From contig NMRA01000126.1 of assembly GCA_002633005.1 (NCBI GenBank), forward strand, positions 869,388 to 907,040: a stretch of 37,653 nucleotides of DNA, given 5' to 3'. Below the pieces are notes generated by a model, which worked only from the letters and a program-made list of their open reading frames with translations, had not been told where the DNA came from and did not search any database. This stretch comes from Phoronis australis (lineage: Eukaryota; Animalia; Phoronida). This document shows, one piece after another, positions 646 through 36,520 of the stretch (the stretch's first letter is position 1; each line of letters starts with the position of its first letter). A program made the position numbers and the translations under genes.

Positions 646-830
646 NNNNNNNNNNNNNNNNNNNNNNNNNNNNNNNNNNNNNNNNNNNNNNNNNNNNNNN
701 NNNNNNNNNNNNNNNNNNNNNNNNNNNNNNNNNNNNNNNNNNNNNNNNNNNNNNNNNNNNNNNNNNNNNNNNNNNNNNNNNNNNNNNNNNNNNNNNNNNN
801 NNNNNNNNNNNNNNNNNNNNNNNNNNNNNN
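646..830. other. Assembly gap (185 N)
   Basis: Run of N directly visible. Confidence 0.99.
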
Positions 831-971: not shown

Positions 972-1129
972 CGCTAAATCTGATTCCTGCTTTACACACA
1001 ACGGCTTTTTGAAAATCTTCGTCAGGTAGCAATGCCACGTGTCCGCCCTGATGACGTATTTTTGACCTTGTTTGTTCTTAAAGCCCGACCAGTCGCAGTT
1101 ATCAGATTTCTTGATGCATATCTTGTAGC
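972..1129 (-). CDS. Tae4-like domain 3, exon b: YKICIKKSDNCDWSGFKNKQGQKYVIRADTWHCYLTKIFKKPLCVKQESDLA
   Basis: Acceptor cttcgaacag|GC, donor GCG|gtaagt; 158 nt; inside ORF 924..1175. Confidence 0.9.
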
Positions 1130-4100
1130 CTGTTCGAAGACACAGGGCAGGAAGAACGACATAAACCAGTTTCAAATGGTGGGCAAATTTGTAAATTGAC
1201 TTGATAGTTCTTGTTTTATGAAAACCATATTTGAAATTTAAATAGCAGTTTACGCGTCTTGATACCCGAAAACTTCAGGAGAACTGTCTAGATGGCCAAT
1301 TGGTGTTAATTTCTTGCCAATGAAAATACAAGGAGAAGCGTCATATTGAGATACGTCCTGAGTTAACTTCGAAAGATCGTACTTACCTAATTGATATAAT
1401 GTGTAACTAAATCTCAGGCCGCATGTATCACCATAACTTTTATCAAATCCCGCCTTTTTCCACATTGCAGGCTTGTCAAATATGTTTGGGTCCGGGTACT
1501 TTGTCCACAAATCATTGAACGTAAAATCTGCAGTCATAGAAATTATAAATACAGCGTTTACGTGGCGTCCGATCGAAAGGCTGGTCCGTCGTCTTATCTG
1601 ATCTTTTACAAATGTTCATCTGACAACCATTAAAGCGACAATAACCACCCTAGTAGCCGTAAAGATATCTTGACGTTGTGTTAGATATCCACCCGCTGTA
1701 AATTAGGTTTCAAACAGAGAAAGAACTGACAGTTCCTTAAAATGATACAAAACACTGTTTTGATGATTTCAGCCAATGCTGTGTCACCTGCCAATGCATC
1801 ATTGACGTCAATTTCGAAAGACAATAGATGAAGGAATCAAATAAAAATTCATATCTCACAACTTGGATGTTAGGGTCTTTGGTGGGTGGTCTTTTCCCAC
1901 TGTTGCCGCATGATTCGCTAAAACTTATTTCACGTTTGCCTACTGATCAGCTTTTTAAATTTCCCTCCGAACATTTGAGGAAGATCGAGGTCTGCGGACC
2001 ATTATCTTGTTTCAAAGAACTGGATGGGAAAGTCATTTTAGTAGTTGTTAAAGAGCCAGAACCGGGTCTAGTATCTTTTCGATGGTTGAGATCTTGCGCC
2101 GTGATCGATCTACGCTATCTAGCTTAATTTCACGTATAAATAACGAACTGCTAGTTTTTCACAAGCCCAGATATTCAGTCTCCCGACCAATGAACAGGCT
2201 AAGCCCAGATTTGTAGCAGTTTTGTCATCGATTCGGGAATAAAAAGACACATTCTCAGAAAAACAACGGCATCAATATCATGGCCAAGTTTTGTTTGATA
2301 CAAGTGTTCAAGATGAAAACTCCAAAATGTTGTCACAGTTTTCTTAATTTTGTTTTTTAAGGATAACCATAAAATCCTTGATATGTGCTGCAGCAATACA
2401 CTAGAAGGGGAGCGAGATGAGCTCCCGAAGCTAGTTTACAACGAAACAACTTCATGAATATGAATATACATGTATGGTTGTTTATTATGACAATGAGTAA
2501 ACATACAATAAAGACTATTATCTACTGTGTAAAGGTAGGTTACAATGTGCCACAGATGCAGGCCGATGCTGCATCCATTCACCCCCTATATTTTCTAATA
2601 TCAGGTACAACATTTGATCATTTAAAAAGCAAATACCAAAATTACTTTTGAGAACAGTGCAAATGTCTCAAAGTTTCACATAAATTGGATTAGCAATTTC
2701 TGAGACTGTTTCAAATTTCGCCAAGAAATGTGAAAATTTCCTGGAGTCCTATGTAACCTTAATTTAAGTAGCGCTGAAGCAGATGTTGTGAAGATGCGTG
2801 GCGAATTCATTTTAAGAGCTCTTGATGAACCGTATTGTGGTCTAAAAGACAAAAGCAAAGTTTTCCAACATTTGTTGAAATATTCCCATCACACTCTGAC
2901 CATCACACTCTGACCATCACACTCTGCTCAGGCAATCAGATCTTACCTGCAATCTTCGTCGTTTCTTTACATGACGGAGATGGTGTAGTAGAACTAACAG
3001 TATGTGAGGTGGTGGTGGATTCAGTAAATCCAGTGCTTCCTGAAAGTGTGCTCTCTGTTGGTGGCGATCGTTTTGTTGCCGAGGTCGGGGGAGTGGCGGT
3101 AATCGAAAGTGTGGTGGTATTCAGGGGAGTGGTGGTAGTCGACTGTTTGGTGGTATTCGGGGGAGTGGTAGTAGTCGAGGATGTGGTTGTGGTCGTAGGT
3201 GTGGTGGTGGTCAGGGGAGTGGTGGTAGTAGGGGTTTTGATGGTAGTCAGGGTTGTACTGGTAGTTGGGGAGGAGGTCGTTATTTCAAACACGCAATACT
3301 TTTTGCAGTGTTCAAAATAACATTTATTTTTACAGTCTTCACCATCCCACAGGTCAATATATCCTTTGGATCTCTTGGAACCCTTTTTCCTGGTGCAACG
3401 GTGAAATATTATGATGCCTTTCCTTGTCTGAAAAATCATTCCTTAGCGATAGGTGATTAATATTCTAACATATTGGAATAATTTACCTGTCAGCCAACTA
3501 TACAAAAAACCAGAAATAGAAATAAAACCACAAAACGTTTTTGTGAGATTATTGCTATTTTGTTGTTTTATTTCTATTAGGGGCAAAAACCGACATTGTT
3601 TTGACATCAAGAGTAATGACTCATCAGATAACAACAACAACGACAACAAGAGCAACAGCAACACTCTATGATAATAATAACTAACCGACAGAAGAGGACA
3701 GCCATTGGTACGATGTTCATTAAATGTTCACTGCACACATGTTATGTGCCTATTTTCTACCATGTGGCTAAAGGGCATATTTTGCAAACCTATAATTTGT
3801 GAAGATGATTTTAATGCTATTTAAGTATTTTTGTCAGCGTTTGGACTGCGAGAGGCCATATGAGGAAATTGATGGCGGACGAGGGAGCCAAAAGTTCACG
3901 AAGTTGAATTTGTTTGTTGAATTCGATCTTTTTTTGGCTCGATCTGCTTATAATATGGGGTGAGTATCAGTGCCGTCATTACCACGGGCCCATTAGGGCA
4001 CTTGCCCGCGGCCACGACTGCAGAGGCCCCACGCCCGCGATCCAAGTCATATAGTAACGGTAAAAAAGTCAAGTGGTAGATGGTTCAGTGCCAGTATTTA

Positions 4101-7100
4101 AGTAAATAATGCTCCCAGTAAAATGTGTCTTACGTGCGTGAATGGGGCATTCACTGAGGCATTTCGCTGAATAACGGGGGCCAGTATGCAAGCTCCTGTA
4201 GGAATTTTCAAAAGGGGTGCATTCTCAGCCAATACATCGGATTTTACTAATGGGTACACAAGTAACCTAAAACAAGATGCGTTTCTGCAAAGATGGCGCC
4301 TCGCACTCACAAGATTCCACGCAACTTTGTTGTCTGATATTAAAAAACTTAGGGTGTTATTTTTGTCAATTAAAATGGTTTTGAATGCTGATATATCCAC
4401 ATCAATCATACGGAGAATTTGAGTGCTCTGGGACATTGATAATTTTATTTAGCTAAATATGAATGTGAAATCCTGTTCTGACAAATGCATTGCCATAGCC
4501 TTGTTTACAGTGGCGGTGTGGANCAGTCTAGTAGCTTTTGGGTGAAGGGTAATGCAAAGGCGCTTTTTGAGGGGGAATACTTCTTGGGGCGCCATGTAGC
4601 ACTTTTGGGGCTGGCCAAAAACAACACCGTATGATGCAGTTTTTAAGGGGAAGGGGTGCTTTCTTCCACTTGTCCACCTAGCTAATGGATACGACACCGC
4701 CAGTGGTTGTTTTTCCTATGTGAGACACTCCTGACTAAACGTTTTACAATATCAGAAATTTTGTTAAGCGTCGGCTAGCGGACTGGGTCTGAATTATTTT
4801 CAGAATGTCAGATTGATTTTACTTTAGTCCCGGCCAGACATTTACCCGATTTATTTCTGGAAACGGTGTTGACAGAATTCGCGCGCTTTGCTCTTCATGT
4901 TTGTCGAGAACTTGACAATTCAACGCAAAGAATTACTCCATTCGAAAGTTTTTGTTGGCTTATCCAATATTTACGATTAATTCACGTGAAAAACGGGCAT
5001 GCTGTTCATAACTCTTTAATTTGACAGCGGCAATGCGCAACGTTTGGGTTTTCGGGGGAGTAATTGCGGCATTTTCGACAGCCAGTGTGGTGTCTATCTT
5101 CCGTCAATTAGAAACGACATGCACATTCGACTCATTGTAGTGAGCATTGAATCATCTCACCTGCCGCGAAAAGGCCTAAAACAATGGATTACTTTACGAA
5201 CCGAGACATGTTTCAGGTGCAGACGTTGCGCCCATATCCTGATTCGACAGATGATCCATTTTATTAACCGGCTCCTTTGTGATGATAGCGCGGTTGAATC
5301 AATGAACAATAGACTGTGTTTTTACCGACATCATCGGCATTTGAGTTTCTACAATTAGATTCCAAAATTGAGAATAGGTGGTACTCAACTAGAAGACTAT
5401 TTAATATGTAACATCTCTGGCTTACTTCCTTTTTATGTTACTATTACAATTCTGTAATTTTTTACATTTTGGTAACACTCTTGGGTTTTCAGAATTAAAA
5501 TATCTTTTTAAACCTGCCACGTATGCGAAATGATAATCATTTATGTATTACATTATTCATCTTGTGCTTCTGGGATTATCATATACCATCAATAACTGAT
5601 AAAATGCTTTCTAATGATCTGACTCTCATGCAATTTGGCTGAAAAGCGGCGGAGTTGCAAAAACTTCCTAGTGACACTAACAGTGCTGTAGTGGGGGGGG
5701 GGGGGGGNGGCGCAGCCAACCATCTTTTGGCATTTGAACGTAAGTTACGTTCAGTGCTCAAGGTGATACGATGGGCTTTGGGCGCCTACTTACCTCTTCG
5801 TACTGGACACTAAATTTCATAGCAAGAACCAACGCCGGAACAAACAAATGCAAAGGAATTCCACGCATGCGCGGAGCAACCTCAACATCGCGAGATCGAA
5901 GTTGGCATTCCCAGACTAGAGTTCTATGCACGAAACCGTAGTCGCCATCGGATGTAGTGCTGTTTCTGCAAGAATTACAGTTGCGCAGACTTGTATTGTT
6001 GGCTGTACCAAGTTCAGAACGTTGAACTTTGACAGACATTGAGAGAAAATTGACCATAAAAAAGCTGTACACTCGCAAGATCAGCTCGACTGTCGATTAA
6101 AATATTGACTCAACCAAAACACTTGAGACTGTCTTCTTCATTGGAATGCTGCTGAAAAGTTTAAACTCTTTGCTGGATTTTTGGACTTAGTCGACGTTGA
6201 CATCTCTTGTATGAAAGTCGCAAACTTTTTTGTCTGCACAGACTTCTTTTTCCCTAGGGTTTTTCAATGCTGTGCGAACATACATTGTCAATGCGTGCCG
6301 TATACAGACTTTGACATGCAATATAAGCAATATGAGCATGTCTCTGGACCATCACCTTAACTCTAGTGTCCATTTCTTTTGAAAATGGGCACATTCTAAA
6401 CACATCGCTGGTGTGTTGATACTCAGGGGCTGAGAAATGGGCCAAGATTTTGAAATAAGTAGCAAAACCCCAATCACCTGTAGGCAAGCCAATCATCAAA
6501 ATTTGTACAAATTGATTTTTTTGCATATTTGTGGTTTTATTTGAATTTAGAGTACATAACTCCAATTTAAAGTTATTGCATAAGTAAAAGGGTTATTTTA
6601 TGTTAATGACATTTATTTCGACTTAACTGTACTCTCCCATTATATGGGTGTATAATCCACTGCATGGCCCTGTAGTCACCGCCAATAGTGTCAGGAACAA
6701 GGCGTGCTGGAATTGTTTTGGAAAATTTGGACTTCCAGTTATGAAATCCTCTATAAACGCCTCTTACAAAGGCGAATTTTGTCTAGCATATTTTCAAAAT
6801 GTTCCGACACTGCAGGTGAAATGTCCAGGACCTAGAGAACAGCAAAATCTCATCAAGTACAATAAAACCCGTATTAAGTTTCATTATTTTTTGCTAAGAA
6901 TTATCTACGTCCCCGTTTTGCCCGTTCTGACTCTTCCCATCTGTATTTTGGGAGACAATAACCATCCCTTATTAAAGTTACAATCTAAAAAGTTATACAG
7001 CTATAGTGAGCAGGTGACCCTAGTCGACATGTGTTATCCACTTGCTTTTTTGATTTTTTTATATCAGATGGAAGTTCTATGCAAACACAGTTCAAATTGT

Positions 7101-10100
7101 CAAATGAGAAAGAAACGAGAAAGCCACAATTTAGTTATATTTTTAGAAGCACAAAGAGTTCTTACATTCGAACTGGTCACATAAGCTATACGTCAAAAAT
7201 CGCACGTGAACCACATCGACCTGTGCCGACTCAGTGTCGACAATAACCATTGAGACTGTGAAGTCACCGACAAAAAGTTATTTCAAAATTTCAAACAAGC
7301 GGAAATCTGCAGCTGTCAAAATATCACTTTTTCTGTATTTCTTGCCGTTCCACACGTCGACATGTCCTGTGACCGGAATGCTCGGGGTCCTGTTTAGGTA
7401 TTGGCGGAACATTAAAGTCATATGATCCGTTTGTAGACGTTTTAAAAACATCGTGAATCTGCATAAAAACCATTGAAACATACTGTCTGATACTTAATTA
7501 GAACTTTTCGTAAGTATGGGGTCAATCTGTTGCCTGTACATATTTTTTCTTTTATTTTTTATTTTCTTAAAATCTGCGTGATCAAAACAAACGAATGTTG
7601 CCCATAATGCTGTGCGGTTTGACCTTTCGGCAACTAGTCAGCTGTTTCCGGTACTGCTTCGAAGAAGACAAGTTCGCCTTAACAGGTAATTTATTCGTTT
7701 CTTGAACATTTTGATGACGATATTGCTCCCTGTATAAGCTGAACAGTCTAACTATTACTCTTAGGATTAGATGAAACCATTACCTGTGGGAAAATNTGTT
7801 GCACATGTTGTATTTGTATAAACGTCAATTACTCCTGACAAAATAGCACCTGTAGAAGACAAAAGACGTCAGTTATGTATTAAAGTGTCATAGAACGTGA
7901 AAACAGACTAAATTGCGTTATTTAAAATGTTTTTCGGCAACCGAAACTGAAATCAAACTGTTCACCAGGTATTTTTACGGTTTGTTTTTAAATATTTTGA
8001 ATTTACGTTGATGTCAAAGTGTTTTTCCTTTAGTTTAAAATTTCAAAAAAACAATCTGCAAACTGCTGACACTTGATCAATTTTTCCCACACGGTATGAT
8101 GGCAAGACGCAAATGTAGCACATTTACCTTATATGGAAAAGGTGAAATTGACCTTTGACCTAAACAAAACAATGACAATTTCAAACCGCAGCCGGCGACT
8201 TCTTTGAACGCACGCGCGAAGATATGTTATTAGGGGCGGAGAATTTGAAAATTGTATTGGGAAAAATGAGCTTTTATTTCATATGTGTTTCAATAGTGAA
8301 TCTGACGATTTTTTCTACAAATTCATGCAATATGAACGTGAAGAACGCTCACGTTACGATCCGCAAAAATTAGATTCTCCGCGATCTGTTTAAAATGTAC
8401 ACTTTACGAGTTGTGCTTTGCATACCGCTTTAACAATTACCTCCAACTTTGCTCTGTTTCTCACACAAAGTGGTTTCTTGAAGATCTTCTTCAGATAACA
8501 ATGCCAAGTGTCCGCTCTGATGATGTATTTCTGACCGTGTTTATTCTTTAAGCCCGACCAGTTACAATTATCAGCTTTCGTTATGCCAATCGTGTAGCCT
8601 GCAGTAAGATAAGAGACGACAGGGACGATTTCATTAGGAGCGCAGTGACCAACCTCAGTTCTCTGAACTGTTCACAACATTAAGTGTGATTCCCATCAGT
8701 GAGTGTTCACCAATCCTTATTTGTTTTTAAAATTAATGAACTAAAACTCAATTCCAGAAACAAAACCATTTGATTTTTAAAACTTCTAAATGCCAATGAA
8801 TGCCACAAAACGGCAACACTTTGCATGTTTCTAAATACCAGGCAAAACATGGTTTTCTACACCTCTTCAAAGGTAGTTTAGGTCAGTCTAAACTGCACTG
8901 AATCAAGATAAATGTAAGAATAAAGATCTCTTGCTAACCAGAAAACTAGCTGTATGGATACTAACGTCAAAATAAGGCAAGGAACCTTAGCCAATACTCA
9001 GCTCAAACAGAAAAAACTGAAAAATGGTTCCATGCACTGACAGTAAGATCAAATACATTGAAATTCAAACATGAAGCAGGACAAGTGTATATTTTTTTAG
9101 AGATGCATGCTCAAATAAAAATGACAATTTTACAAAAAGGGCGGTCCTTCTTAAAAGCAAGGATTCGGAAATTACGGTTGAGCTGTTATGGAATCTTAAG
9201 GTCTTCACGAAGCTTGACAATTACTTTAACCTGCTCATCTTTAGACGTGCGCGATAATTTTACTTGCCTCGTCAATGAATTCCCCTAAGTACGTTTAACA
9301 TTTAACGGGTGCGTGTAGCGCCTTATAAAATTCCAAATGGTAGTCAGTGCATTACGGGCACTTACCTATACGATAGATGGCGTAACTAAACCTCAGTCCA
9401 CATGTGTCCCAGTGTGACAGGTACTTCTGATCAAACCCTGCTTTTTTCCACATAGCGGGCTTCTTAATCTTTGGATTCGGATACTTCTTCCAGATGTTAT
9501 TAAACTTGGGTTCTGTAAATATGATAGAACAACAAGAATGGGCATCATCAAAACTTTGAAGGCATTGTTCTGGTACGTGATGAACATTCAGACGTGTAAT
9601 CTTTCTGCCATTGTGCAGTTGACCTTTATTTAAAGATACTCACTGAAGGCCTTTTGTTTGGAGATCTCAAACAAGCAGAACTCTTTACACTTTTTGAAGT
9701 AACACTTGTTTCTACATTTCTTGCCGTCCCACAAGTCGATATGTCCAGTTGGTCTCTTAGGGTTATTCTTCCAGGAGCAGTGACGGAATGTGATGATTCC
9801 TTTCTTTCCCTGAAAATCATTCTCAACTAAGTCGTTTGAAAACCTGTAGCAGTCAACAGAGTGAGATATAATTTAGACACAATTTCTTTAAAATTTCTAT
9901 ACAGTTTATTGTAGAGTGATATAACAAAATATCTGATTTTGTTGTCGCATTAGACGGCTCGTCACCACCGGTTAGATGGTTAAAAACAGAAATCGAATTA
10001 GGAAGGCAAATTTCATGAAATTGGCCACTAAGTATTTCTTACAGTGATAGAGTTTGATTTCCGTCCAACAAGAACATTGAAACTATCGGCTACTCAAGAA

Positions 10101-13100
10101 AATGTTTCTGAATTTATTGGGTTGGCCATCTCCAAAATTGCGAAAAAGAAAATGGCTCATGTACACATTCATTTGCCTGTGGCTTAAGTGGGAAATAGAA
10201 CTCAGCACGGTAACGAATATTTTGTGACATTTTTAATGGGAACAGAAAGGCTAAATCTATTTTCGTTCTTTTTAGCCCACTAAACAGGGCGAAATACAAC
10301 TTTAAGTCATCATTAGTCGTCCTCAGGCGTTCGGTAGATCTGTAATCCTATTTTAGGTTTAGCTTTTAATTTGTGTCGTTGTCAAGTCAAGTGGTAGAAA
10401 TAAACTTCTAACCTAAACCGCACTCTCGCCATGGACTTGAATTCCAACTACACCGAGGCATTCTCATCGCGGGCAATTTGAGTGACCGAATTGCGCGTGC
10501 CAGTTTCTATTAAACATTGCCATGCCCGAACCAGAGCAGGCCAACACACATCACAGAATGGCGCTTCGATAGTGCCTGGCCCTAGTAGTACAAGAACGAG
10601 TAAAATTCATGTCTATTACCAACTGATGCATTTCTCTGACTTAAGCAATGGCAGAATAAAAGTCATCGATGCCGAAATATTCATAAGTGTCCTAAACTAC
10701 AGAGCGGTGGCCTCTGGCCACTGGCTACATTGTAAGACGCTCTCCTATTTGTTCGTGGTAAGGATACCATGTTTGTAGTTGCAGTTTAGCTTCCGTTATG
10801 AAGGTCCTTTGTGCGTGGAAAAAGTTTTTGAGGTCCGTAACAAGTGTTTTGTGAATGGTGGTAAGGGTTCTGCTCCGTGTTTTTTCACCGTGTTTGTGTA
10901 TCGCTGACGCAGACATTTTTTACAACAACTAAGTGAGGTAACCGACGAATATGTCCTGAAATATCATTGTTCCCAGAGAAAATAACTTTGGAAAAATCCA
11001 TTCTGCTTTATTTGTAGCTGCGTTTACGTCTTAATAACTTACCGCTAACTTTGCTTTGTTCTTTACACAGAACGGTTTTTTAAAGATTTTCATCAGGTAA
11101 CAATGCCAAGTGTCAGCCCTGATGATGTATTTCTGGCCGCGTTTGTTCTTAAAGCCCGACCAGTTACAATTATCAGCTTTCGTGATGTATATCTTGTAGC
11201 CTGTAAAATATCGTTTAATGTAATAAAATTCCCATGCGAAGCCACCCTTACAGACATGTTTAATTATTATTAAAAATATTAGGAAATTAAGTAAATCGCA
11301 GGGAAGGGGGAAGGAGGGAGGGAGTCGGAGATTCTTGAAGGTAAAAGCCAATTCCGTCGTGCAACACAATAGGAATACAACATAAAAAGTAAAGAATAAA
11401 AATGAGACAGTAATCATAAATAGTAAAGAATAGAAAATGAGAAGTAATTACTATTTATTATTCATAAATTTGACATACGTTTAGAAGACTGACACAGTGG
11501 TATGAATATTTCAATAAATAAACAAGTAAATAAACCCGACACCTGCATGTACATATCTACACAGATTACAGCATTACTTTTGCACACCTGAGTGAGTGTG
11601 CGTGCGTCTACGTGTGCAAAAATGAGTATAGTTCCTGTGTAATGGTGGAATTTGCATATGGTTATTCATGGTGCAGGAGAAGTAGCTTGAGTCATTGCAT
11701 AGTGAATAAGTATCTGTTTATCTTATCTAGAAGTGACCTTACGCCAGAAAATGAATGGCAGGTGTGATTGACCAATCAGCATGGTGCATTCCGGACACTC
11801 ATCCAGACTGCAGTTCAAGTCGCCATTTGTCTGACATTAGCGGCTGTAGGACAAAACACGTTCAACTACAATGTGCATTTTAACTGAATGGCCAAGAGGT
11901 GTTGTTGTGGTGTGTGTAATTCAGACAGTCGTTATACCAACAGAGATGAAAGTCCTGTCAATTTTTATCCTTTTCCAAAGCCTAAAAGTGACGTTGTAAT
12001 GAGCAAACGGTGGATTAATTAAACTGTGTGCACTCCCGGCGCACGAGCAGCCTTGCCTGTCAACATTGTTTGACCACTCGAAAGCTAAACACAAGTATGT
12101 TCTAAGGTATGCACTCTTTTTAACATTTCTTCCCAATATCGGAATTTTGGCTTTGGATTACAGTCTTGTTTAGTGTTTGACCCGCCTCTGCGGCACTTGG
12201 TGGTTCATTATAGCCATACATGACAACCATTTCCATAGCACTGACGAAAACGAGTTAAAATATAGCCAATCAAGAGTCAAGATGCATTGCATGTCTACCT
12301 ACTTATCTATTAGAGGCTCTTACATCTATACTGACTGTGAGTGTTGTTATAGGCCTATTCGTACATGTAACTCCTCAGTCTTGGCCCTGTCCAGCCAAAG
12401 CTCGATCTCCACAAAGATTGCCAGTAAAAGCCAAAGCGAAGGATTGAAAACTTTGTTATGAGCATGGGCGAAAATGCACATTAATTACCGAAAATACGTA
12501 GGATTTTGGCGCTACGCTGCGGCACTACAGAAGCGGCAAGCACGCACTGAGCAAATACGCAGTGCCTGTATTGGTTCTCCGCCTGTACTTAGTATATAAC
12601 TCAAATTATATAAAATAACAGATTGGCAACATTTGGCAGTCGGAAAGTGTGCTTTGTTTAGTCTGTCTTCGGAGGTCATAATCATGGTCTCAAATAATGA
12701 CCGGGTTAGGCTGGTGTTGCTTCATCAAAATCATTACCTTTGAAATGATAATTTGAATGGTTACAGTTGCTCCGAATTTCGACTTGTTACGTGCGTCTGT
12801 CACGGCGTCGGCTCGACCATCGGCGATCACTAGACAAGAAATTCTCGGTTAAACTGTTACAGATACAGCTCAGTAGGTTTCTTGATCCCCTCAATATTTC
12901 AGTAAAACGTTAACGTTTTGTTGTGAGGGAAGAATAGTTATTCATTAAGATTTTTACTATTATTTTTAACCGCATTCGTGCAGTTTTTGTCGACGCTGAT
13001 GTCAACTCTATGAGGCTCATTGGATTTGCGTTGACTTATAAAACATCCGGCGGTTACATGTCAGGTGTCCTCGACGTAAATCTTCACCCCGTTCCCGTAG

Positions 13101-16100
13101 GAATCTTTTCGGGAGGCTCTTGCCTTTTGTCTTTGTCATGGCAAGATTCATAGGGAAGATAATGTTCGCCAAAGTCTGCGTGAACATCAGTTAGCCACAC
13201 CGGTCTTGGTTGACGAAGCCATTCTCTGATGTCGGACTTCCGATCGAATCACGTGACATCATAGGCGGAGCGATCTTCTGCTGGCGTAAGGTCAAATTGA
13301 AGACGGTATTTTATTTTCATTAATAATTTTAGAAACATGAAAACGTAAATGGTGAGTTGCCATGAAACTGGTTAATTTGTAGAATAGAGTCTGGAGACTG
13401 GGAGCATTGCTGTAAGCCTGTATGTTTGGTCGTGTCGATAAAGCGTGTTCTGAGCATGGCATGCAACTTGACCAAGCTATACGTCCATGACTACGCAATG
13501 TACTGAGCGCAAAATCTATATGCAGTACCTATTTCAAAGTGAATTTGAACGGTAGACATCTGCTCATCTTGTCAATGACACTATTGTTTTTCAAATGGCT
13601 GAAGACTGGGGATTATTCAATTGTTCAGCACGCCCAACCAGTGCCTTGAGCAAGGAGAACGTACATGGAGTCAAGTTCAAATTGTCATTGGACTTTTACT
13701 TAAAAGTTACTTAAAACGCTGCCAGAGCTTAATTTCAGCAATTCGTCGCCATCTTGTCACTACAGCAACCGGGATAGTAGAAACTTACAACATTTTTAGT
13801 GACAGAAGACTGGAAGTCTGCTTCTCCCTTTCTCCGTCGTTTTACACACAATGATATGAGCAAAAAAGCAAGAGGTAGGGACCTTTAACCAAAACGTGGC
13901 TTGAATAACGTCCGATTCGGCTATGTTTCGGCACTGATCATTGCGAACGTTTTCAACGACTTTCGAACAAAAACAAAACAAGCGAGAATTTCTGCCGATG
14001 CGTTGCCATTTTGTCTCTGGCAAAAGTTCTCTTTCCAATCACAAAAGGGCGCTGCAAAGGTATATAACGGAAGTTAACCGCCATTGACTTTGTAAGGCTA
14101 CTCTAGCGCAATGTAACATTTAGATGCGGGCAGATTGATGCTAGATTGGTTTGTCATCTCAAGCTTCGACATGCTGTCAGGATTTACTCGTTAGCTTTGT
14201 TTACAAATTCAGGATTATCATGCTAATAATTGTACGATGACACTTGAATAACCCCTTTTCCAAATGCTGCCTAGTAGTTTATGAACCATGGTGATTGCCT
14301 ATTAAGACCAAGGCTCATAAACCAGAATTAGAAATGAAAAGAGTCAAGTGACATCGAACAATTCTTGGCGTGATAATCCTGAACTCGTAAATAAACTTTA
14401 GAGAGTAGACGATGGCAGCATATCAAAGCTTAAAAGAGTTACCAATCAGACATCAATGTCATGCCTCCGTCAACATTGCTCTCCTTCCCTCTATGTACCT
14501 AATAATACCCTCGGAATTGGTACATATTTGTGTATTGTTGACTTGGTTCATTGAATAATCGCGAGATCAGATCGTGATTATATGGCCTAATCATACATGA
14601 TCCAATCCACCACTCGACCATGAGTTTCTACTCACCCAGTTGGTAAAGGGTGTAGCTAAATCTCATCCCACATGTGTCTCCGTAATTCTTATCAAACCCT
14701 GCCTTTTTCCACATAGCACGCTTCGGAAACGTCTTCCGGTCTGGATACTTGGCCCACAGGTCGGCTTTGAACTTGAAATCTGCAAAAATGTCTGTACAAC
14801 TTGAAATTGCACCTGCATTTTATATATAATCTATTCTTACATTGCAGACTAGGTTATTTTTGCCGGTGTCTGCTTTTCGAAACATGTGGTTTGATTGTGG
14901 CTGTTATTTGCATTTATGCCCTGAAAATGTACAGGTTTCCGAGAAAATGTTTTTAGGATATCGTGGTAAAATTACCCCTCTGCATTGCAGCTGACACGTC
15001 AGCGTTTAAAATGGCCTCAGAGGCCCAGCAAATGTTTTCAAAATTGAAAAATAACTCTTACGTGTCTTGTAATTTGCAAAACTGTTGCACAGCATGTGAA
15101 ATTTAGTCAGAAAAGTTAATGTAACAATAACAAGGGCCTGTTACGAAGTCCCGCTTACACGTTTTGCGACTTTCAATACAAGGGGCAAAACTATTCATAG
15201 TCTAGATATCGGCAGTAACACTTTCATGAAACGAATCCTGCGTGACACCCTCACCAGTCGATTTTGGGCAACTTGACCGGTTTGATAACCATAAAATCCG
15301 CTAGGTCTAAAGAGAACATCCACCTTCAGTTGACATTATCGTTCTCTCGAGATTAACTTGGGTAATCATGTGCGAACTTGGCCATTGCAAACATAGACAT
15401 AAACATTCGGGAAGACAAATATTTCTTGCTTATGTCATTTTAATAAGAATAAGTCATTTTAAATCATAAGCTGTTCAATACTATTTTTAAATTTTCATTG
15501 GACAGTTTTTAATAGCATATTTGAATAGTTTGTGAAAATGCATGTGGTTAAGTGTTTGAAATTTCAAAAACGGACACGAAATGTGGCTTTTGTAACCTAA
15601 ATCTAGAAAATAATGTAAAGCCAGTATCCGCTTCTTCATTAATTCTGTTGGGCGCGCAACATTATAAACCAGCAGTTAGAAATTGAGGAAAGCCAAGTGT
15701 CATTGTACAATTTTGGGCATGGTGTTCCTCCGTGGTGACTAGATGATAGCGTTGTTTTTACAGGATTAAAGCGCACGGATACTACAGATACTTCTGACAA
15801 CGGTCTGAGAACAGTTTAAACATGTTCGCTATTGCTTATGCACCTAGTTGCTGTTATACCGCCTAGTCCCTGTCCTGAGAGTACTCAATCACATTTCTGA
15901 AAGCTTGTGCCAATATGAAATAAGGATATCCGCCAAATCAAAATATTGGCGAGTTGAAATCTTACTCTGAAGAGTACAGTCAGCACTGTTTAAAAGGAAC
16001 CATTAGTGGAAAGCTTTTTGTTCATACCTGATATCTTTTTTGTTTCATTGCAAGGCGGCCAGTGCGTAGCTAGCGTGCTGATTGAAGACGTTGTTGGCTT

Positions 16101-16331
16101 GGTATCCACTGGCGGACTGGTGTCCGCTGGCGGAGTGGTGTCCGCTGACGGAGTGGTGTCCGCTGGCGGATTGGTGTCCGCTGGCGGAGTGGTGTCCGCT
16201 GGCGGAGTGGTGTCCGCTGATAGAGTAGTATGGTTAGGCAGAGTAATATCCGTTGACTTAACCGTGTTTGCTGGCAGAGCGTGGTCCACGGGTGAATTGA
16301 TGGAATTCGCTTGGACTTTTAACACCGAAAA
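972..16331 (-). CDS. dae4: Multi-exon gene (partial at the 3' end, start uncertain): probably secreted protein with three tandem Tae4-like peptidoglycan amidase domains and mucin-like linkers (domesticated amidase effector, dae4-like)
   Basis: Exons 16028-16331, 14636-14779, 11043-11200, 9644-9809, 9366-9512, 8441-8598, 2947-3427, 1387-1527 and 972-1129 all have AG/GT ends and join in frame without stops (1857 nt). Each domain shows the Tae4 motif order F..(L/I)W.KYP / DTCG(L/M)RFSY / KY(I/V)IRAD..YL.KIFKKP / KGII.F / G(H/Y)IDLWDG..C...C, comparable to bacterial Tae4 NAC.IRMSY / Y.YRV..YL...GKP / GKKGII / GH..LWNG..C...C as recalled. The symbol is a family-level assignment. Confidence 0.85.
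1387..1527 (-). CDS. Tae4-like domain 3, exon a: DFTFNDLWTKYPDPNIFDKPAMWKKAGFDKSYGDTCGLRFSYTLYQLG
   Basis: Acceptor gactgcag|AT, donor TTAG|gtaagt; phase 1-1; inside ORF 1250..1537; Cys codon at 1421-1423. Confidence 0.9.
2886..2926. repeat. Short intronic tandem repeat, 14-bp unit ccatcacactctga, about 3 copies
   Basis: Directly visible. Confidence 0.85.
2947..3427 (-). CDS. Tae4-like domain 2, exon c (His replaced by Tyr) fused to Thr/Ser/Pro-rich mucin-like stalk 2
   Basis: Acceptor aatgatttttcag|ACA, donor GCAG|gtaaga; phase 0-1; TRKGIIIFHRC...KGYIDLWDGEDCKNKCYFEHCKKYCVFEI then a TTTTP-rich run to PSCKETTKIA; inside ORF 2936..3439. Confidence 0.9.
7268..7430 (-). pseudogene. Decayed extra copy of Tae4-like exon c (pseudo-exon)
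   Basis: Reads TDHMTLMFRQYLNRTPSIPVTGHVDVWNGKK...FRLFEILK*, collinear with 9644-9809. The acceptor position reads AA instead of AG, there are compensating indels, TAA replaces CAA, and a GT remains at the homologous donor position (7267-7266). Confidence 0.75.
8441..8598 (-). CDS. Tae4-like domain 2, exon b: YTIGITKADNCNWSGLKNKHGQKYIIRADTWHCYLKKIFKKPLCVRNRAKLE
   Basis: Hand translation; acceptor cttactgcag|GC, donor GAG|gtaatt; 158 nt, phase 1-0. Confidence 0.9.
9366..9512 (-). CDS. Tae4-like domain 2, exon a: KPKFNNIWKKYPNPKIKKPAMWKKAGFDQKYLSHWDTCGLRFSYAIYRIG
   Basis: Hand translation; acceptor atttacag|AA, donor ATAG|gtaagt; phase 1-1; Cys codon at 9400-9402. Confidence 0.9.
9644..9809 (-). 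CDS. Tae4-like domain 1, exon c (catalytic His): GKKGIITFRHCSWKNNPKRPTGHIDLWDGKKCRNKCYFKKCKEFCLFEISKQKAF
   Basis: Hand translation; acceptor aatgattttcag|GGA, donor TTCA|gtgagt; phase 0-1; His codon at 9741-9743. Confidence 0.9.
11043..11200 (-). CDS. Tae4-like domain 1, exon b: YKIYITKADNCNWSGFKNKRGQKYIIRADTWHCYLMKIFKKPFCVKNKAKLA
   Basis: Acceptor ttttacag|GC, donor GCG|gtaagt; 158 nt, same length as paralogous exons 8441-8598 and 972-1129; inside ORF 11031..11417. Confidence 0.9.
11888..12106 (+). mobile_element. Degenerate THAP zinc-finger exon of a DNA transposon, in an intron of the amidase gene
   Basis: MAKRCCCGVCNSDSRY...VNFYPFPKPK...KRWI, then frameshifted LC...VCSK followed by a GT donor; fits the THAP C..C / FP / W / CSxH pattern. 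Confidence 0.65.
14134..14457. repeat. Imperfect fold-back inverted repeat of about 320 bp (MITE-like)
   Basis: Left arm attgatgctagattgg...ttcaggattatcatgctaataattgtacgatgacacttga pairs with tcaagtgacatcgaacaattcttggcgtgataatcctgaa...ccaatcagacatcaat; the inner tttatgaaccatggt / accaaggctcataaa also pair. Confidence 0.75.
14636..14779 (-). CDS. Tae4-like domain 1, exon a (catalytic Cys): DFKFKADLWAKYPDRKTFPKRAMWKKAGFDKNYGDTCGMRFSYTLYQLG
   Basis: Hand translation; acceptor tttttgcag|AT, donor CTGG|gtgagt; phase 1-1; clear paralogue of 1387-1527 and 9366-9512. Cys codon at 14670-14672. Confidence 0.9.
16028..16331 (-). CDS. Exon: possible signal-peptide end plus Pro/Thr-rich stalk 1 (FSVLKVQANSINSP...(ADTTPP)n...PPCNETKKIS)
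   Basis: Acceptor ttctttctgtttcag|TTT (phase 0), donor TCAG|gtatga (phase 1), inside ORF 15990..16379. An in-frame ATG at 16367 is an alternative start. Confidence 0.8.
16101..16220 (-). repeat. Coding 18-bp minisatellite, about 6-7 copies, encoding (ADTTPP)n
   Basis: Plus-strand unit gctggcggagtggtgtcc repeated with single-base variants. Confidence 0.92.
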
Positions 16332-17014: not shown

Positions 17015-17100
17015 ATATAACGCGCCCGCATTTCGAGAACCAGTTTTCTCCACTGAATAACGGGCATCAAACTGGTCCTCAAAATACGGGCACGTTATAT
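17015..17100. repeat. Palindrome, 32-bp arms with 4 mismatches, 22-nt loop
   Basis: atataacgcgcccgcatttcgagaaccagttt versus aaactggtcctcaaaatacgggcacgttatat. Confidence 0.85.
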
Positions 17101-17712: not shown

Positions 17713-20700
17713 TTTGAATGTTTATTATGAAATAGTCAATACAATAAATATACAGACCAATACAAAGAAATCTATATAAAATTATACACGCATACATTAA
17801 TTTATCAAGTAATTATAAGAGTACAATGATAAGTATTAAATATAAATATGATTACGAATATCAATAAATCATTTTCATACACAATAAGTGATTTTGCAAT
17901 CAATGTGATGAAGAGTCGAAAATAAGCACCTGTATACGATGTTATCAACTCACACAAAGGGATTCAATATTAAAAAGAACTTTTGAAACTATTAAGAATA
18001 AAACCTTATTTTCATTAAACTCAAGTCCTATACAATCATTAAGAAAAAAATAATTTTGCTAAACATTTTTAGAAGATCTTAATATCTTTGTTAACATTGG
18101 GGTATTGTTTGAGTGTCTGGAAAAGCTGTGCCCTCTGCTCCCCGCATACCTTGCAAGCAAAGAAAATATGAGCACAGGAACACAAAGGTAAAGTATTATT
18201 AAAATTATGGTTAAATTTGTCACTGTTTAGGAATAATCCGCATTTTGATCTGTATAGGATAATTTCATGGTTGAGAGGAAGTTGGAATGATGTGAATGGG
18301 ACTGCAGAGTCTAGAGTAGTGATATGCAGTTTAAAGTTATTTTTGGGAGTGACGATTGAAGTACTTTCTTTTATTTTCGTTGGTAAGCTTGGCTGAGGGA
18401 AGATGGTATAGTGTATAAATTACTTTGCCTCAGTCCTGGTCTTGCGTTATGTCATCTGCAGGAGTCAAAGAGGATTTTTTAATAATTGTCTATGTTGTTT
18501 AAGACTTAGAATTTATACATGAAAATGTGGAGTTTACGACGGGTTGTTAGTTTGATCCAGTTGATTGTGTTTTATCCTTTGTATGTCCCTGTTATGGCTA
18601 AGGCTGCTTGGTATTGTTTCTTTCTAATTGAAGAAATATGCCTGCGTTTGCTGATTGCTAGATGATGTCACGGATATGGAAGCACAAAAGACTTGAACAA
18701 GAGGCACGGAGTTGAGATGACAAGAGACGATTGGAATTGGATTAATTAATTTATTGTACTTTTTGAACGAGTTCGCGATACTGAAGAATAAATGTAAGCT
18801 TATCGTCTAGTAGCAAGCCACGGTGTTCATGTGTGTGCCTTTTGGGAATAACTTCCCCATCGGCTGATAGATCAAGCATTGAATTTGTTTCGAAATTAGT
18901 GCTACACGGTATTAGACTAAGAAAATATAGGATCATCACTTTTTTCAGGTTTAAATTCCATCTTCGATTTGTGAGTGCAGTCAGAGAGTTTGTTCAGGTC
19001 AGTTTGTAATTGTAAGGAGTCATGAGGATGCAGTGTCATCAGCATGTAAGAATGTTTACCAGTTTTTGTGTCTGGAAGAGCGTTCGTGTACAGTAAAAAG
19101 AGTAAGAAGCCTAGTACGGTACCCTGTGGTTCTCAGCATTTACATAACCTGGTGTTGATGGGGGTGAGAAGACACCCTCAGTTCGGACTTTGGAAGTTCG
19201 CTATTCAAGATATGATTTTAAAAATTGGAGGAGAGGGATAGAGAAACCATAAGATTGTAAGTTTTGTAGAAGCAGATCATGAGGAACGATTATATCAAAT
19301 GCTGACGCAAAGTCTAAAAATCCGGATCTCACGTAGTACTCTTGCTCAAATTGGAGGTGGATTTCATGTACAATTTCCGTAAGTTGGGACACAAAGCATG
19401 AATCCAAATTGCCGACCATAGATGAGGTTTTGTGACGAGAGATGGTCAAACATGTTTTGAGAAATATTTTTTTCTACAAATTTGAATAAGGTGTTGGAAA
19501 GGGTTATGGGGCGATAGTTGGCATTGTCTGCTTTGGAGTCCTTTTTGTGTATTGGTATCATAGCATCAAATTTCCAGTCCAAAGGAAATTTTCCAGATTG
19601 TAGTGTGTTGTTGTATAATGTTGTCAAAGGAGCTGTAAGCTCTCTTGCTATTATCTTTTTATTAGTAATTATATCGGTACCGTCGGTTTTGTTTTCGGCA
19701 ATGTTTTTAGTAGCTTTCGGACTTAAGATGATTGGGCTTGTATGCCAGAGAAGTGCTCTAATGTTCTGTTTGGGAACTTGGGAAAGTTTGTTGGTGGTGC
19801 AATGTGACTCTTAGCGGTGAAATATTATAGAAATAGTTTACCTTTTTCAGCTGTGGATGACGCCTGAGTGTTGGCTTCCTTTAAGTGGATGGTGGGGTTT
19901 AACGATTGGTTTATCTGTCCTTGAATTTTTTTACTATATCCCAATATTCCTTAGAATTTTGGGGACGTTGTTGATTATGGAAATAATTTTCATGTTAAAG
20001 TTTTGTTTTGTCTTTCTAATTAGTTTTACCACTATTTTGCACTGTTCTTTTTAACACTTAAACGTGTACGGGTTATTAGATTTTCTGAACAATCTCTACA
20101 GTTTATTTCTATTATTCATTTCAGAATTTGTTTTGTTATTAAACCACGGTTTGCTCTTGTTTTGTATCGTTTCCATGGTTGATGGGAATTTTTGTTATCA
20201 AGTATATTGTAGAATGACTGTGTGAATGTTGAGACTGCGTCATTTACGTCACTTTTATTTAGTATTTCAATCCAGTCAAATGGGGTTATGTCGGTGCGCA
20301 ATTTGTCCATGTTAAGGAGACTGTAATTCCAAACCTTTTTAATAATGCCGGGTTCTTCAGGTGCGCAGTTGAGTGTGAATGTTGTTTCTATAACGCAATG
20401 GTCTGAGTTACCAATAGGAGATCTAACAGAAGTGGATTCAATGAATCCGTAGACAAACAAGTTTAGTCCTCGCCCGGTGTTAGAGTCATAGGCAATGTTG
20501 TATCCTGGAATAACAAGTGCACCGATGTTGTCTTCAGACAGCGTTCTGTATTCACATATGGCTATGTTCATGTAATATTTGTCTCTAATAAATTGCTTGA
20601 GAAGTTCAAATCTTGAAAAATTGTTCGCCTTGATACTGTTGATGTTAGTGAATATGACTTTAAAGCTGGCTAAACCCTGAGTCTCGGGTCCTGAATTGTC

Positions 20701-21050
20701 TTCTATGTCGCCAGCAGTCAGAAGGCACATCTCAATGATAATTCTGATATTACAAAGTTCTTCGTTGTGAAGTAAACATTACGTAAGTGCACAGCTCGGG
20801 GTCGTTTTTGTAGTAAAAAAGTGAGGTCATGCTTTGTAGGCAAAAACCAGTGAAATGTTTTTGTTCTGCAGACACCCAGATAATTACAATTATTATCTGT
20901 GTGCTAAAAACTTGATGAATTCATACATTAACATCCTTATCTAACAAGAAAAAATAAATACGAGAATAATAAAAAGTATTGTTACACCTGACGCCACCCG
21001 AATCAAATAAAGCTCTAAGACAGTTCCGTACTCGTTTGGCCATTTTATCT
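17710..21050 (-). mobile_element. Decayed CR1/L2-group LINE (APE endonuclease plus reverse transcriptase ORF2)
   Basis: ORF 20116..20730 has GDIEDNSGP, TNINS and SDH (APE). ORFs 19364..19627 and 19201..19449 have FPLDWK..IPIHKK..NYRPITL, QFGF and FLDF.SAFD..PH..LL. PQGTVLG lies near 19125, HADDT near 19040, and AATAAA with a short A tail near 17710-17726. Ends are approximate. Confidence 0.9.
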
Positions 21051-27122: not shown

Positions 27123-27238
27123 GTCTCAGATTCATGACATGGGCAAAACCTCTTGGAAATTTCGTCAAAATCCACCGGCAAGCCTCGGGATTTTGGCGAA
27201 ATTTCCAAGAGGCTTTGCCCATGTCATAAACCTGAGAC
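27123..27238. repeat. Palindrome, 51-bp arms with 4 mismatches, 14-nt loop
   Basis: gtctcagattcatgacatgggcaaaacctcttggaaatttcgtcaaaatcc versus ggattttggcgaaatttccaagaggctttgcccatgtcataaacctgagac. Confidence 0.9.
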
Positions 27239-29740: not shown

Positions 29741-30335
29741 ACAATTCATTCAGGAACCCAGGGCAAAGATACTGCCCAGGGTTAGTATAGACAGAGATCG
29801 TGTAACTTCGTACTATAGTTTACATAACAGCCACGGGCTTCGCATACCAAAGTCAGCCATTACACGAATGCTCAAAACAAAAGCAGCACAGCAGCTCAGC
29901 ATGGTAGTGAGCTATTCTAAGTCATATCCCTGGGTTGTATAAGGTCTGTGTTTTATATTAAATATGTGACCTGACGTTATTTTGTTGTTTGTTTATCATT
30001 CTAACTTGGGTTACAAATGCATCTGCTGCAGCATTGGTCACGTACTGTTATGATTCGTTTACTTTCTTGAGGCTGAACTGTCTCCACACACGTTCTTAAC
30101 AAGATGACACAGAGTTCACAGAAATATCCCAGAGCCAAATAACCATTTCCTAATATTGCAACATTGTGATGAATTTTGTATGATTTCCTTAAGTTGACCT
30201 TAGTGAATCACTAAAACAATCTTAACAATTGTTATTATAGATTGTTTTCGTGAGGCACTTAGTTCAGTTGCACTCCATTACTGTCCTGGTGATACCCACA
30301 TCAAACAGTCCATTTAAGAAATGGTATCAACAACC

Positions 30336-30813: not shown

Positions 30814-31290
30814 TCTCTGATTAGATCAGCACGTAGGTTCACAAGCCCAGCACAAAGAATCAAGTAGTTATCCACTGATTCTGTGATACACACTGACGGG
30901 AATTACTCAAAATTTTGAAAACTTTTAAGTCTCCGTATTGCTCAGTCGCTCCAGTGGAAATGCGCCATGTTTTTATCAGACCTTTTTTACTAAGGTGTGA
31001 CTTGCCTTTGGTGAAAGCTGGTATGTTTAACTTAACTCGTCTTGGAAACAGGAGTTCATCAATAGTAAAACCTCTATCTGACATAACTTTGTCTTTGGGT
31101 AAAAGGTATTTTAGAAATCCAGATTTTTGAACAATGTATTTGTCACCACCCCTTGCCCCCAAATGCTTTAGATACGTACATGGTGTACCCATTTTTGGTG
31201 CAATTGCAACCACATACTTTGCAGTATTGTGTGATTTGTACTGGCTCTAGGTTTCACCCCCTATCAATGATTTCAAATCAACTGATCTGC
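30810..31290 (-). mobile_element. PIF/Harbinger-ISL2EU DDE transposase remnant (DDE_Tnp_4-like)
   Basis: YKSHNTAKYVVAIAP, DKYIVQKSGFL..L...D.VMSDRGF, LNIPAF.KGK..LS, LKVFKIL and terminal VDNYLILCAGLVNL, with frameshifts. Confidence 0.85.
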
Positions 31291-36300: not shown

Positions 36301-36520
36301 CTGTTGTTTTTACAAATATAAGTTTACTAAGCTCTTTGGTGATTATTAGTTAACTTCAAACTCAAATTTCTCAAAAATGTGCAACTTTATATGTGGGAAC
36401 TTTTTAGATTTTGAAAACACTCTAATAAATGAATTAAAAAACACCAAAATAAAATTGCCCCCCTAAAGTACTCACAAAAACCATTTTCTAGAGGCCCTAC
36501 AAAATCTGGCCCACCGACTA
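33344..36520 (+). mobile_element. Internally deleted Academ-like DNA transposon with both TIRs and a 3-bp TSD
   Basis: Perfect 17-bp TIR TAGTCGGTGGGCCAGAT, extending imperfectly to about 140 bp; TAT on both flanks (33341-33343, 36521-36523). Coding remnants are DKDLV.LEAKYH (about 35040-35080), TLHCLRANHQ (about 35474-35503) and a C-terminal Cys-rich finger CKCKKNMC...CC...CTEMCSCDNCSN (ORF 35503..35772). Confidence 0.85.

What the first reader, a model, noticed from the sequence alone, without database searches (positions are those of the whole stretch)
3359..3361. Domain 2 has lost the catalytic His (CAT to TAT): active enzyme plus pseudo-enzyme in one chain
Seen: domain 1 reads TGHIDLWDG (His at 9741-9743) while domain 2 reads KGYIDLWDG, although its Cys (9400-9402) and the surrounding fold motifs are intact. 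Inference: domain 2 may be a non-catalytic peptidoglycan-binding module, analogous to the catalytic/non-catalytic split among PGRPs. It could also be a recent single-base mutation or an assembly error.
Basis: partly seen in the sequence, partly recalled or inferred. Interest (0 to 1): 0.7.

Follow-up and report, generated by a model that had tools for sequence, protein, structure and literature searches.

The report
His-less copy in animal Dae4 array
In an animal's tandem cluster of bacteria-derived cell-wall-cutting enzyme genes (dae4), one weakly transcribed copy has tyrosine where its relatives have the catalytic histidine, so it is likely a dead enzyme, most likely a relaxed duplicate rather than a purpose-built binding module.

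Summary
The codon is real in the window: TAT at 3361-3359 (minus strand) against CAT at 9743-9741, with Cys 9402-9400 intact. The gene is an intron-containing animal dae4 (Tae4-like amidase). His is present in 97 of 97 relative rows covering that column, and His126Ala abolishes Salmonella Tae4 toxicity, so this copy is predicted inactive.

The 'two-domain chain' is not supported as stated. The window holds at least three domain cassettes plus a dead His-bearing exon. Contig depth implies about five more collapsed copies. The best-expressed transcripts splice cassette 3 to a His exon. The first His exon may end a one-domain isoform. No junction linking the Tyr exon to its neighbours was seen in RNA. 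Only two reads cover the Tyr codon, too few to be called, so an allele or error is not excluded.

Domain 2 shows purifying selection overall (pN 0.17, pS 0.66), but its lid loop has also changed. Inactive-looking Dae4 (Nematostella Cys-to-Tyr) and tandem Dae4 chains (Branchiostoma) are already known. Most likely a relaxed duplicate in a birth-and-death array. A selected cationic (net +25) binding module remains possible.

The parts
16028..16331 (-). Predicted exon L0: likely end of a signal peptide plus Thr/Pro-rich linker; upstream start exon not found
   Evidence: GT-AG ends and open frame; RNA about 2x in X5 and X6; no convincing signal exon in the scan
14636..14779 (-). Exon N1 of domain 1, catalytic Cys codon at 14672-14670
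11043..11200 (-). Exon M1 of domain 1
   Evidence: X1 contig 9717-11121 links M1 to C1 in DNA
9644..9809 (-). Exon C1 with catalytic His (9743-9741); Pfam Tae4 E 4.4e-9 for its ORF; near-identical copies lie elsewhere in the genome
   Evidence: RNA 43x, 31x and 6x, mostly from a copy spliced to an M3-like exon
9625..9643 (-). Read-through of C1 to a stop (9632-9630) overlapped by AATAAA (9630-9625): possible end of a one-domain isoform
   Evidence: AATAAA occurs once per 819 nt on this strand; use not shown
9366..9512 (-). Exon N2 of domain 2, Cys codon 9402-9400
   Evidence: RNA 0.2x, 4.2x, 0.8x (from bins)
8441..8598 (-). Exon M2 of domain 2
   Evidence: RNA 0.3x, 3.5x, 1.1x
7278..7440 (-). 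Dead C-type exon (Cx) inside the predicted M2-Cy intron: keeps His (GHVDVWNG) but has 1-nt and 2-nt deletions, a stop at a Cys codon and no usable phase-0 acceptor
   Evidence: covered by single-copy X1 contig 5768-7415
3270..3427 (-). Exon Cy, domain part: Tyr (3361-3359) in place of catalytic His; also Thr-to-Lys at His-2 and Trp-to-Arg at His-10 in the lid loop
   Evidence: sense-strand RNA at 2-3x in X6 only
2947..3269 (-). Thr/Pro/Ser-rich mucin-like linker in the same exon; its last ~48 nt are shared with about five paralogous copies
1387..1527 (-). Exon N3 of a third domain, Cys codon 1423-1421
   Evidence: N3-M3 joint in 31, 31 and 1 reads
972..1129 (-). Exon M3 of the third domain; spliced in RNA to a C1-like His exon
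   Evidence: joint 9808->971 in 28, 27 and 3 reads
646..830 (.). Assembly gap (185 N) where the collapsed repeat units likely lie
   Evidence: X1 DNA contig joint 9815->850 at depth 196, against 39-48 for the listed single-copy contigs

Best explanation
This is one domain copy in a tandem, partly collapsed array of animal dae4 peptidoglycan-amidase cassettes; it carries Tyr at the catalytic His position, is therefore predicted to be enzymatically dead, and is most likely a weakly expressed duplicate under relaxed selection on catalysis while His-bearing copies would do the cell-wall cutting. Mechanism: in Tae4 the His activates the Cys thiol, and Tyr cannot play that role (inferred from bacterial structures and the H126A mutant). 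Each N-M-C cassette begins and ends in intron phase 1 (shown by sequence), so cassettes can be duplicated, skipped or lost without breaking the frame (inferred). A dead His exon next door shows that such turnover happens here. The fold, cysteines and splice sites of domain 2 are kept. That is expected if the His was lost late in its history, or if the domain must still fold as a passenger in a secreted chain (inferred, not timed).
For: His in 48 of 48 animal-type and 49 of 49 other rows with that column; 6 of 103 rows lack the column. H126A and C44A abolish StTae4 toxicity (PMC3695027 passages). Three cassettes plus a frameshifted relic exon in the window. Extra copies: contig depth ratios 5.4 (X1) and 5.3 (X2). 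Expression is dominated by His copies: about 40x at N3/M3/C1-like exons in X5 and X6 versus 0-3x at the Tyr exon. Domain 2 has the longer branch, 0.42 versus 0.088 (quick tree); in the C exon it has 4 derived changes at consensus sites versus 0. Precedent: a Nematostella paralogue has Tyr for the catalytic Cys (P0037; PMC8713801 passages).
Against: All three domain-2 exons show strong purifying selection against domain 1 (150 codons, pN 0.17, pS 0.66, each exon p<0.001). All 9 cysteines and the +25 net charge are kept. This fits long-term retention for a new role just as well. The rate asymmetry is not significant (7 versus 2 derived changes, p=0.18). The Tyr is unverified outside the window. 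In X6 only 1 read is 99+ alike, although 3 carry the 3302 change, so the two reads over the codon may share an unlisted difference, which could be a His allele. Thr at His-2 is not essential, since StTae4 has Arg there. The His survey is biased towards intact motifs and holds near-duplicate rows.
Confidence: 0.5

Rival explanations
1. Domain 2 is a selected non-catalytic module: it binds peptidoglycan or the anionic cell surface, or kills as a cationic protein, and anchors active domains through the mucin-like linker.
For: Purifying selection on N2, M2 and Cy. Net charge +25 and pI 9.9 in both window domains, versus median +2 and maximum +12 in 86 relative domains. Changes cluster at the His and the lid loop that covers the pocket (PMC3759425 passages). 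N2, M2 and Cy are covered together at 2-4x in X6. Precedent in the NlpC/P60 superfamily: RipD (PMC12067865 passages). Lysozyme has a non-enzymatic cationic activity (PMC2587705, start of abstract only).
Against: No binding data. The selection signal averages over the whole history and cannot date the His loss. No other His-less Dae4 among 97 rows. Barely expressed in 2 of 3 RNA runs. No junction to an active domain was observed. Domain 1 is equally cationic, so charge is not a domain-2 specialisation. Catalytic mutants of the far less basic nvDae4 did not kill.
Confidence: 0.22
2. The Tyr is a private or segregating allele, or a base error in this assembly, and domain 2 is an ordinary active Dae4 in other individuals.
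For: One C-to-T transition suffices (CAT to TAT). Everything else needed for the fold is intact. The RNA individuals differ from the window at about 1 in 100 sites of this exon (3106, 3147, 3155, 3302), and the read-identity classes in X6 leave room for an unlisted difference. The window differs from all X1 contigs at several sites in collapsed regions (958, 1095, 1372, 8516).
Against: The single-copy X1 contig across the site has only 3 other letters in 1,876, places not shown. The independent Trp-to-Arg change removes an aromatic residue found at that column in domain 1 and, as Phe, in 94% of animal-type rows.
Confidence: 0.2
3. Domain 2 keeps some activity, using another base such as the new His that follows the GIIIF strand.
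For: Cys and the Asp at His+2 are retained; that Asp is the third triad residue in Serratia and Agrobacterium Tae4 (PMC6277958 passages). Domain 2 has His at exon codon 9 where domain 1 has Arg.
Against: By recalled NlpC/P60 strand pairing, codon 9 would face the other side of the sheet (not modelled here). No relative uses such a swap. H126A is inactive.
Confidence: 0.05

Closest known systems
Animal Dae4: nvDae4 of Nematostella vectensis (LOC5507694; P0011/P0038/P0039), Exaiptasia P0010, Ptychodera P0009/P0028
   Same: Same Tae4 domain motifs; window domains score 125-128 bits on a profile of these proteins and group beside them in the tree (support 81, weak). nvDae4 is a secreted peptidoglycan-cleaving, bactericidal enzyme (PMC8713801 passages).
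   Different: Window domains sit on a long branch of their own (1.18; support 99), are far more basic (+25 versus +7 to +9), and lie in a cassette array with Thr-rich linkers.
Nematostella LOC5507684 (P0037), the Dae4 paralogue lacking the catalytic Cys
   Same: A dae4 paralogue with one catalytic residue replaced by Tyr and the rest of the domain intact; noted in print as lacking the Cys.
   Different: It has lost Cys, not His, and is a stand-alone single-domain protein.
Branchiostoma multi-domain Dae4 (P0004, P0033, P0036)
   Same: Several tandem Tae4 domains joined by Thr/Pro-rich linkers in one predicted chain.
   Different: Every complete domain keeps Cys, His and Asp. They are acidic, P0033 carries an extra N-terminal domain, and they form a separate clade.
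Bacterial Tae4 T6SS amidases (PDB 4J30, 4HFK, 4BI3, 6IJF; Pfam PF14113)
   Same: Sequence match of exon C1 at E 0.003; a model of the Exaiptasia relative matches these structures at E 4e-9 to 1e-6.
   Different: The window gene has spliceosomal introns and mucin-like linkers and lies among animal-type repeats; it is not an injected effector.
RipD (Rv1566c), non-catalytic NlpC/P60 protein; non-catalytic PGRPs
   Same: Concept of a dead hydrolase fold kept for peptidoglycan binding (PMC12067865 passages; the PGRP split is recalled, from no call).
   Different: RipD has lost both Cys and His and its binding is shown. PGRPs are an unrelated fold. Here only His is lost and binding is untested.

Membership tests
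Tae4/Dae4 (PF14113) domain | Sequence match to the family | tested here: met
   C1 ORF 36.9 bits, above the cut-off of 27; Cy ORF alone 21.3 bits, below it; predicted full domains 127.9 and 125.5 bits on a Dae4 profile
Tae4/Dae4 (PF14113) domain | Papain-like NlpC/P60 fold | tested here: inconclusive
   Only the relative P0010 was folded (pLDDT 75); it matches Tae4 structures. The window's own spliced domains were not folded.
Active Tae4/Dae4 amidase (domain 2) | Catalytic Cys | tested here: met
   TGT at 9402-9400 aligns with the Cys column, assuming N2-M2-Cy splicing
Active Tae4/Dae4 amidase (domain 2) | Catalytic His | tested here: not met
   Tyr at the column that is His in 97 of 97 relative rows
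Active Tae4/Dae4 amidase (domain 2) | Third triad residue (Asp at His+2) and the C-terminal cysteine pair | tested here: met
   Asp and all cysteines kept; role of the Asp from PMC6277958 passages
Active Tae4/Dae4 amidase (domain 2) | Peptidoglycan cleavage | not testable with these tools
   needs an assay
Domesticated (animal) dae4 gene | Intron-containing, transcribed, spliced host gene | tested here: met
   GT-AG exons; spliced sense-strand RNA for N3-M3 and M3 to a C1-like exon; low-level RNA over the Tyr exon
Domesticated (animal) dae4 gene | Signal peptide for secretion | tested here: inconclusive
   L0 begins like the end of a signal peptide (judged by eye); no convincing start exon found
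Domesticated (animal) dae4 gene | Groups with other animal Dae4 | tested here: inconclusive
   Sister to the animal clade with support 81, long branch, biased composition, quick tree only
Enzyme plus pseudo-enzyme in one chain | One transcript joins a His domain and the Tyr domain | tested here: inconclusive
   Frame and splice phases allow it. No C1-N2, M2-Cy or own-allele linker-N3 junction was listed; 15 of 126 joints were displayed and none.
Non-catalytic peptidoglycan-binding module (RipD-like) | Binding to peptidoglycan, and retention after loss of catalysis | not testable with these tools
   No orthologue of domain 2 was found, so the loss cannot be dated

The most novel reading that the evidence does not exclude
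An animal has turned a horizontally acquired bacterial weapon into a modular chain in which active Dae4 domains alternate with a His-less, extremely cationic (+25) Dae4 domain. That domain is kept by selection as a cell-wall anchor or non-enzymatic killer, and phase-symmetric cassettes let splicing choose how many active and dead domains a protein carries.
Probability: 0.17. Interest if true: 0.7.

Novelty: new variant of a known kind. Interest (0 to 1): 0.37.

Why it matters
If the Tyr domain is kept by selection, it would be a case of a domesticated bacterial toxin giving rise to a non-catalytic immune module. None was found in the held literature (searches; the founding dae paper was not available). 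It is directly testable by comparing two domains of otherwise equal fold and charge. If it is a relaxed duplicate, it is an ordinary step in gene-family turnover. The locus is still useful then, as a divergent, unusually basic dae4 array that the assembly under-represents about five-fold.

Tried and rejected
No whole genome is held for this window, so the collapsed copies could not be read.

No indexed holder of the stretch is on record as RNA; RNA came from same-species raw-read runs, of which only 18-19% was read.

A homologue search with the Tyr exon among longer proteins found nothing (weak evidence). The protein atlas was unreachable three times. The earlier-findings index returned nothing. 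Chou et al. 2015 (Nature 518:98) is not held; I saw nothing of it, and its supplements may already list dae4 genes lacking catalytic residues.

Rejected: the His-bearing Cx exon as the true C exon of domain 2. It has two deletions and a stop at a Cys codon, and its only phase-0 acceptor (7526) lies upstream of an in-frame stop. Also rejected: the 66-nt exon-like stretch 7784-7849 as part of the gene; it has the wrong phase after M2 and lies in high-copy repeat depth.

The N2 rows were misaligned by one codon and were replaced. The test for uncoupled expression of domains 1 and 2 gave p=0.0006 counting reads but p=0.07 counting pairs, so it is suggestive only. P0005 and P0006 (repetitive hits) and P0034 (no Tae4 domain) were dropped before the His count, and domains under 95 aa before the tree and charge tables. 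The careful tree did not finish; the quick tree is cited.

Full report
Observation. The His exon matches Pfam Tae4 (E 4.4e-9) and the Tyr exon's ORF matches weakly (E 2.9e-4). The His exon aligns with the catalytic His of solved bacterial Tae4 structures.

Gene anatomy. Self-comparison and splice-site inspection give a minus-strand gene of repeated three-exon cassettes, N (Cys), M and C (His), with GT-AG ends and an open frame over 619 codons. The order is linker L0, domain 1 (14779-9644), domain 2 (9512-3270), a Thr-rich linker, then N3 and M3 of a third domain, which runs into a 185-N gap at 646-830. Each cassette starts and ends in phase 1. Inside the predicted M2-Cy intron lies a dead C exon (about 7440-7278) that keeps His but has two deletions and a stop. 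Exon C1, if not spliced, ends in a stop overlapped by AATAAA.

The locus is collapsed. An X1 DNA contig joins 9815 to 850 at depth 196, against 39-48 for the listed single-copy contigs. The linker tail is covered by paralogous contigs at 5.4 (X1) and 5.3 (X2) times the window's own copy. Contig depth is a coarse measure, and X1 and X2 are one sample, possibly the source of the window.

RNA. In three same-species runs (18-19% of each read), M3 is spliced to a C1-like His exon in 28, 27 and 3 reads. About 40 reads each in X5 and X6 share only the last 48 nt of the linker and then diverge, so they come from other copies, joined to two kinds of N3-like exon. The Tyr exon is covered at 2-3x on the sense strand in X6 and not at all at the codon in X5 or X7. 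Two reads are below the three-read listing threshold, so the base is neither confirmed nor refuted. Against my reading: only 1 X6 read is 99+ alike, although 3 carry the 3302 change, so the two reads over the codon may share an unlisted difference. No read reaches the M2-Cy junction. Domain-1 exons exceed domain-2 exons in X5 and the reverse holds in X6 (p=0.0006 by reads, 0.07 by pairs). The X1 contig spanning the codon has 3 other letters in 1,876, places not displayed.

Relatives. The nearest proteins are animal Dae4 of Branchiostoma, Ptychodera, Glandiceps, Saccoglossus, Exaiptasia, Actinia, Actinostola and Nematostella. No close orthologue of the window's domains was found. On a profile of 18 animal-type sequences, His is present in 48 of 48 animal-type rows and 49 of 49 other rows that cover the column; 6 of 103 rows do not cover it. 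Rows include near-duplicates, six unnamed records were labelled animal-type by similarity, and the searches favour intact motifs. Cys is lost in 1 of 47 animal-type rows (Nematostella P0037, Tyr) and 1 of 40 others. Branchiostoma has chains of three intact domains with linkers. In a quick tree of 84 rows, the window's domains are sisters (support 99) on a long branch beside animal Dae4 (support 81), with end branches of 0.42 for domain 2 and 0.088 for domain 1.

Selection and surface. Domain 1 versus domain 2 over 150 codons gives pS 0.66 and pN 0.17, with every exon at p<0.001. The duplication is therefore old and domain 2 was constrained for most of its history; this does not date the His loss. 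At consensus sites domain 2 has 7 derived changes to domain 1's 2 (p=0.18), and 4 to 0 in the C exon. Besides His-to-Tyr, the loop before it has Thr-to-Lys and Trp-to-Arg. This is the lid loop over the pocket in StTae4 (PMC3759425 passages), though StTae4 itself has Arg at the Thr position. Both domains have net charge +25, versus median +2 and maximum +12 in 86 relative domains.

Mechanism. Shown in bacteria: His activates Cys, and His126Ala removes toxicity (PMC3695027 passages and section 9; triad variants in PMC3852654 and PMC6277958 passages). Shown in an animal: nvDae4 is secreted, cleaves peptidoglycan and kills B. subtilis only with its Cys, and a second paralogue lacks the Cys (PMC8713801 and its preprint, passages). 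Tick Dae2 kills Gram-positive bacteria but not E. coli (10.1101/2020.04.10.036376 passages). Inferred here: His-bearing copies are secreted cationic amidases, and the Tyr copy cannot cut. I favour a relaxed duplicate (0.5) because the copy is barely expressed, is unique among relatives, sits beside a dead exon and has abundant active paralogues. A selected binding or cationic module (0.22) fits the retained fold and charge and has a superfamily precedent in RipD (PMC12067865 passages). An allele or error (0.2) and residual activity (0.05) remain.

Membership and novelty. The gene is a dae4 by sequence and gene structure. Domain 2 fails the defining His, so it is a Dae4-fold domain but not an active Dae4 amidase. 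The fold was checked only on a relative. A His-less Dae4 was not among the relatives retrieved, nor in the held literature. The founding paper (Chou et al. 2015) and its supplements were not available. Inactive-looking paralogues and tandem chains are each already known, so this is a new variant of a known kind, of modest interest (0.37) unless retention of the Tyr domain is shown.

Noticed in passing
window 14779-3270 (-), both domains: Net charge +25 (pI 9.9) in each domain, about twice the most basic of 86 relative domains; long branch apart from known animal Dae4, so possibly a distinct lineage.
   Followed up: partly
window 646-830 and 2947-2994: Assembly gap hiding about five extra dae4 units; RNA shows at least two N3-like exon types and a different linker in the expressed copies.
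   Followed up: partly
window 7278-7440 (-): Dead His-bearing C exon, 69% identical in DNA to C1 over 146 nt, slightly closer than the Tyr exon's 66%.
   Followed up: yes
window 3021-3204: Eight X5 reads cover only the middle of the Thr-rich linker, with three fixed differences and no coverage on either side; unexplained.
   Followed up: no
window 16331 and upstream (-): No convincing start or signal-peptide exon found within the 21 kb upstream.
   Followed up: partly
window about 18500-20800 (-): Decayed reverse-transcriptase element, likely a LINE; weak RVT_1 hit at 19367-19810, E 0.0054.
   Followed up: no
window 30863-31246 (-): DDE_Tnp_4 transposase fragment, E 1.4e-12.
   Followed up: no
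window 35063-35769 (+): Weak DUF7765 and CXC (TCR) hits in short ORFs, below cut-offs; probably a decayed mobile element.
   Followed up: no
window 27123-27238, 14134-14457, 30195-30266: Self-complementary (inverted-repeat) stretches, and a repeat pair at 33439-33480 and 36373-36414.
   Followed up: no
window 17028-17087 and 5742-5797: Short high-copy repeats that draw most of the RNA reads and contigs laid on the stretch.
   Followed up: no
window about 2885-2925: Tandem 14-nt repeat; the X2 contig lacks one unit and the X1 contig shows 14 gaps, so the window may be another haplotype or over-expanded here.
   Followed up: no
protein P0018 (unnamed Logan record): Non-animal Tae4 with Ser at the catalytic Cys column and a C-terminal extension.
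   Followed up: no
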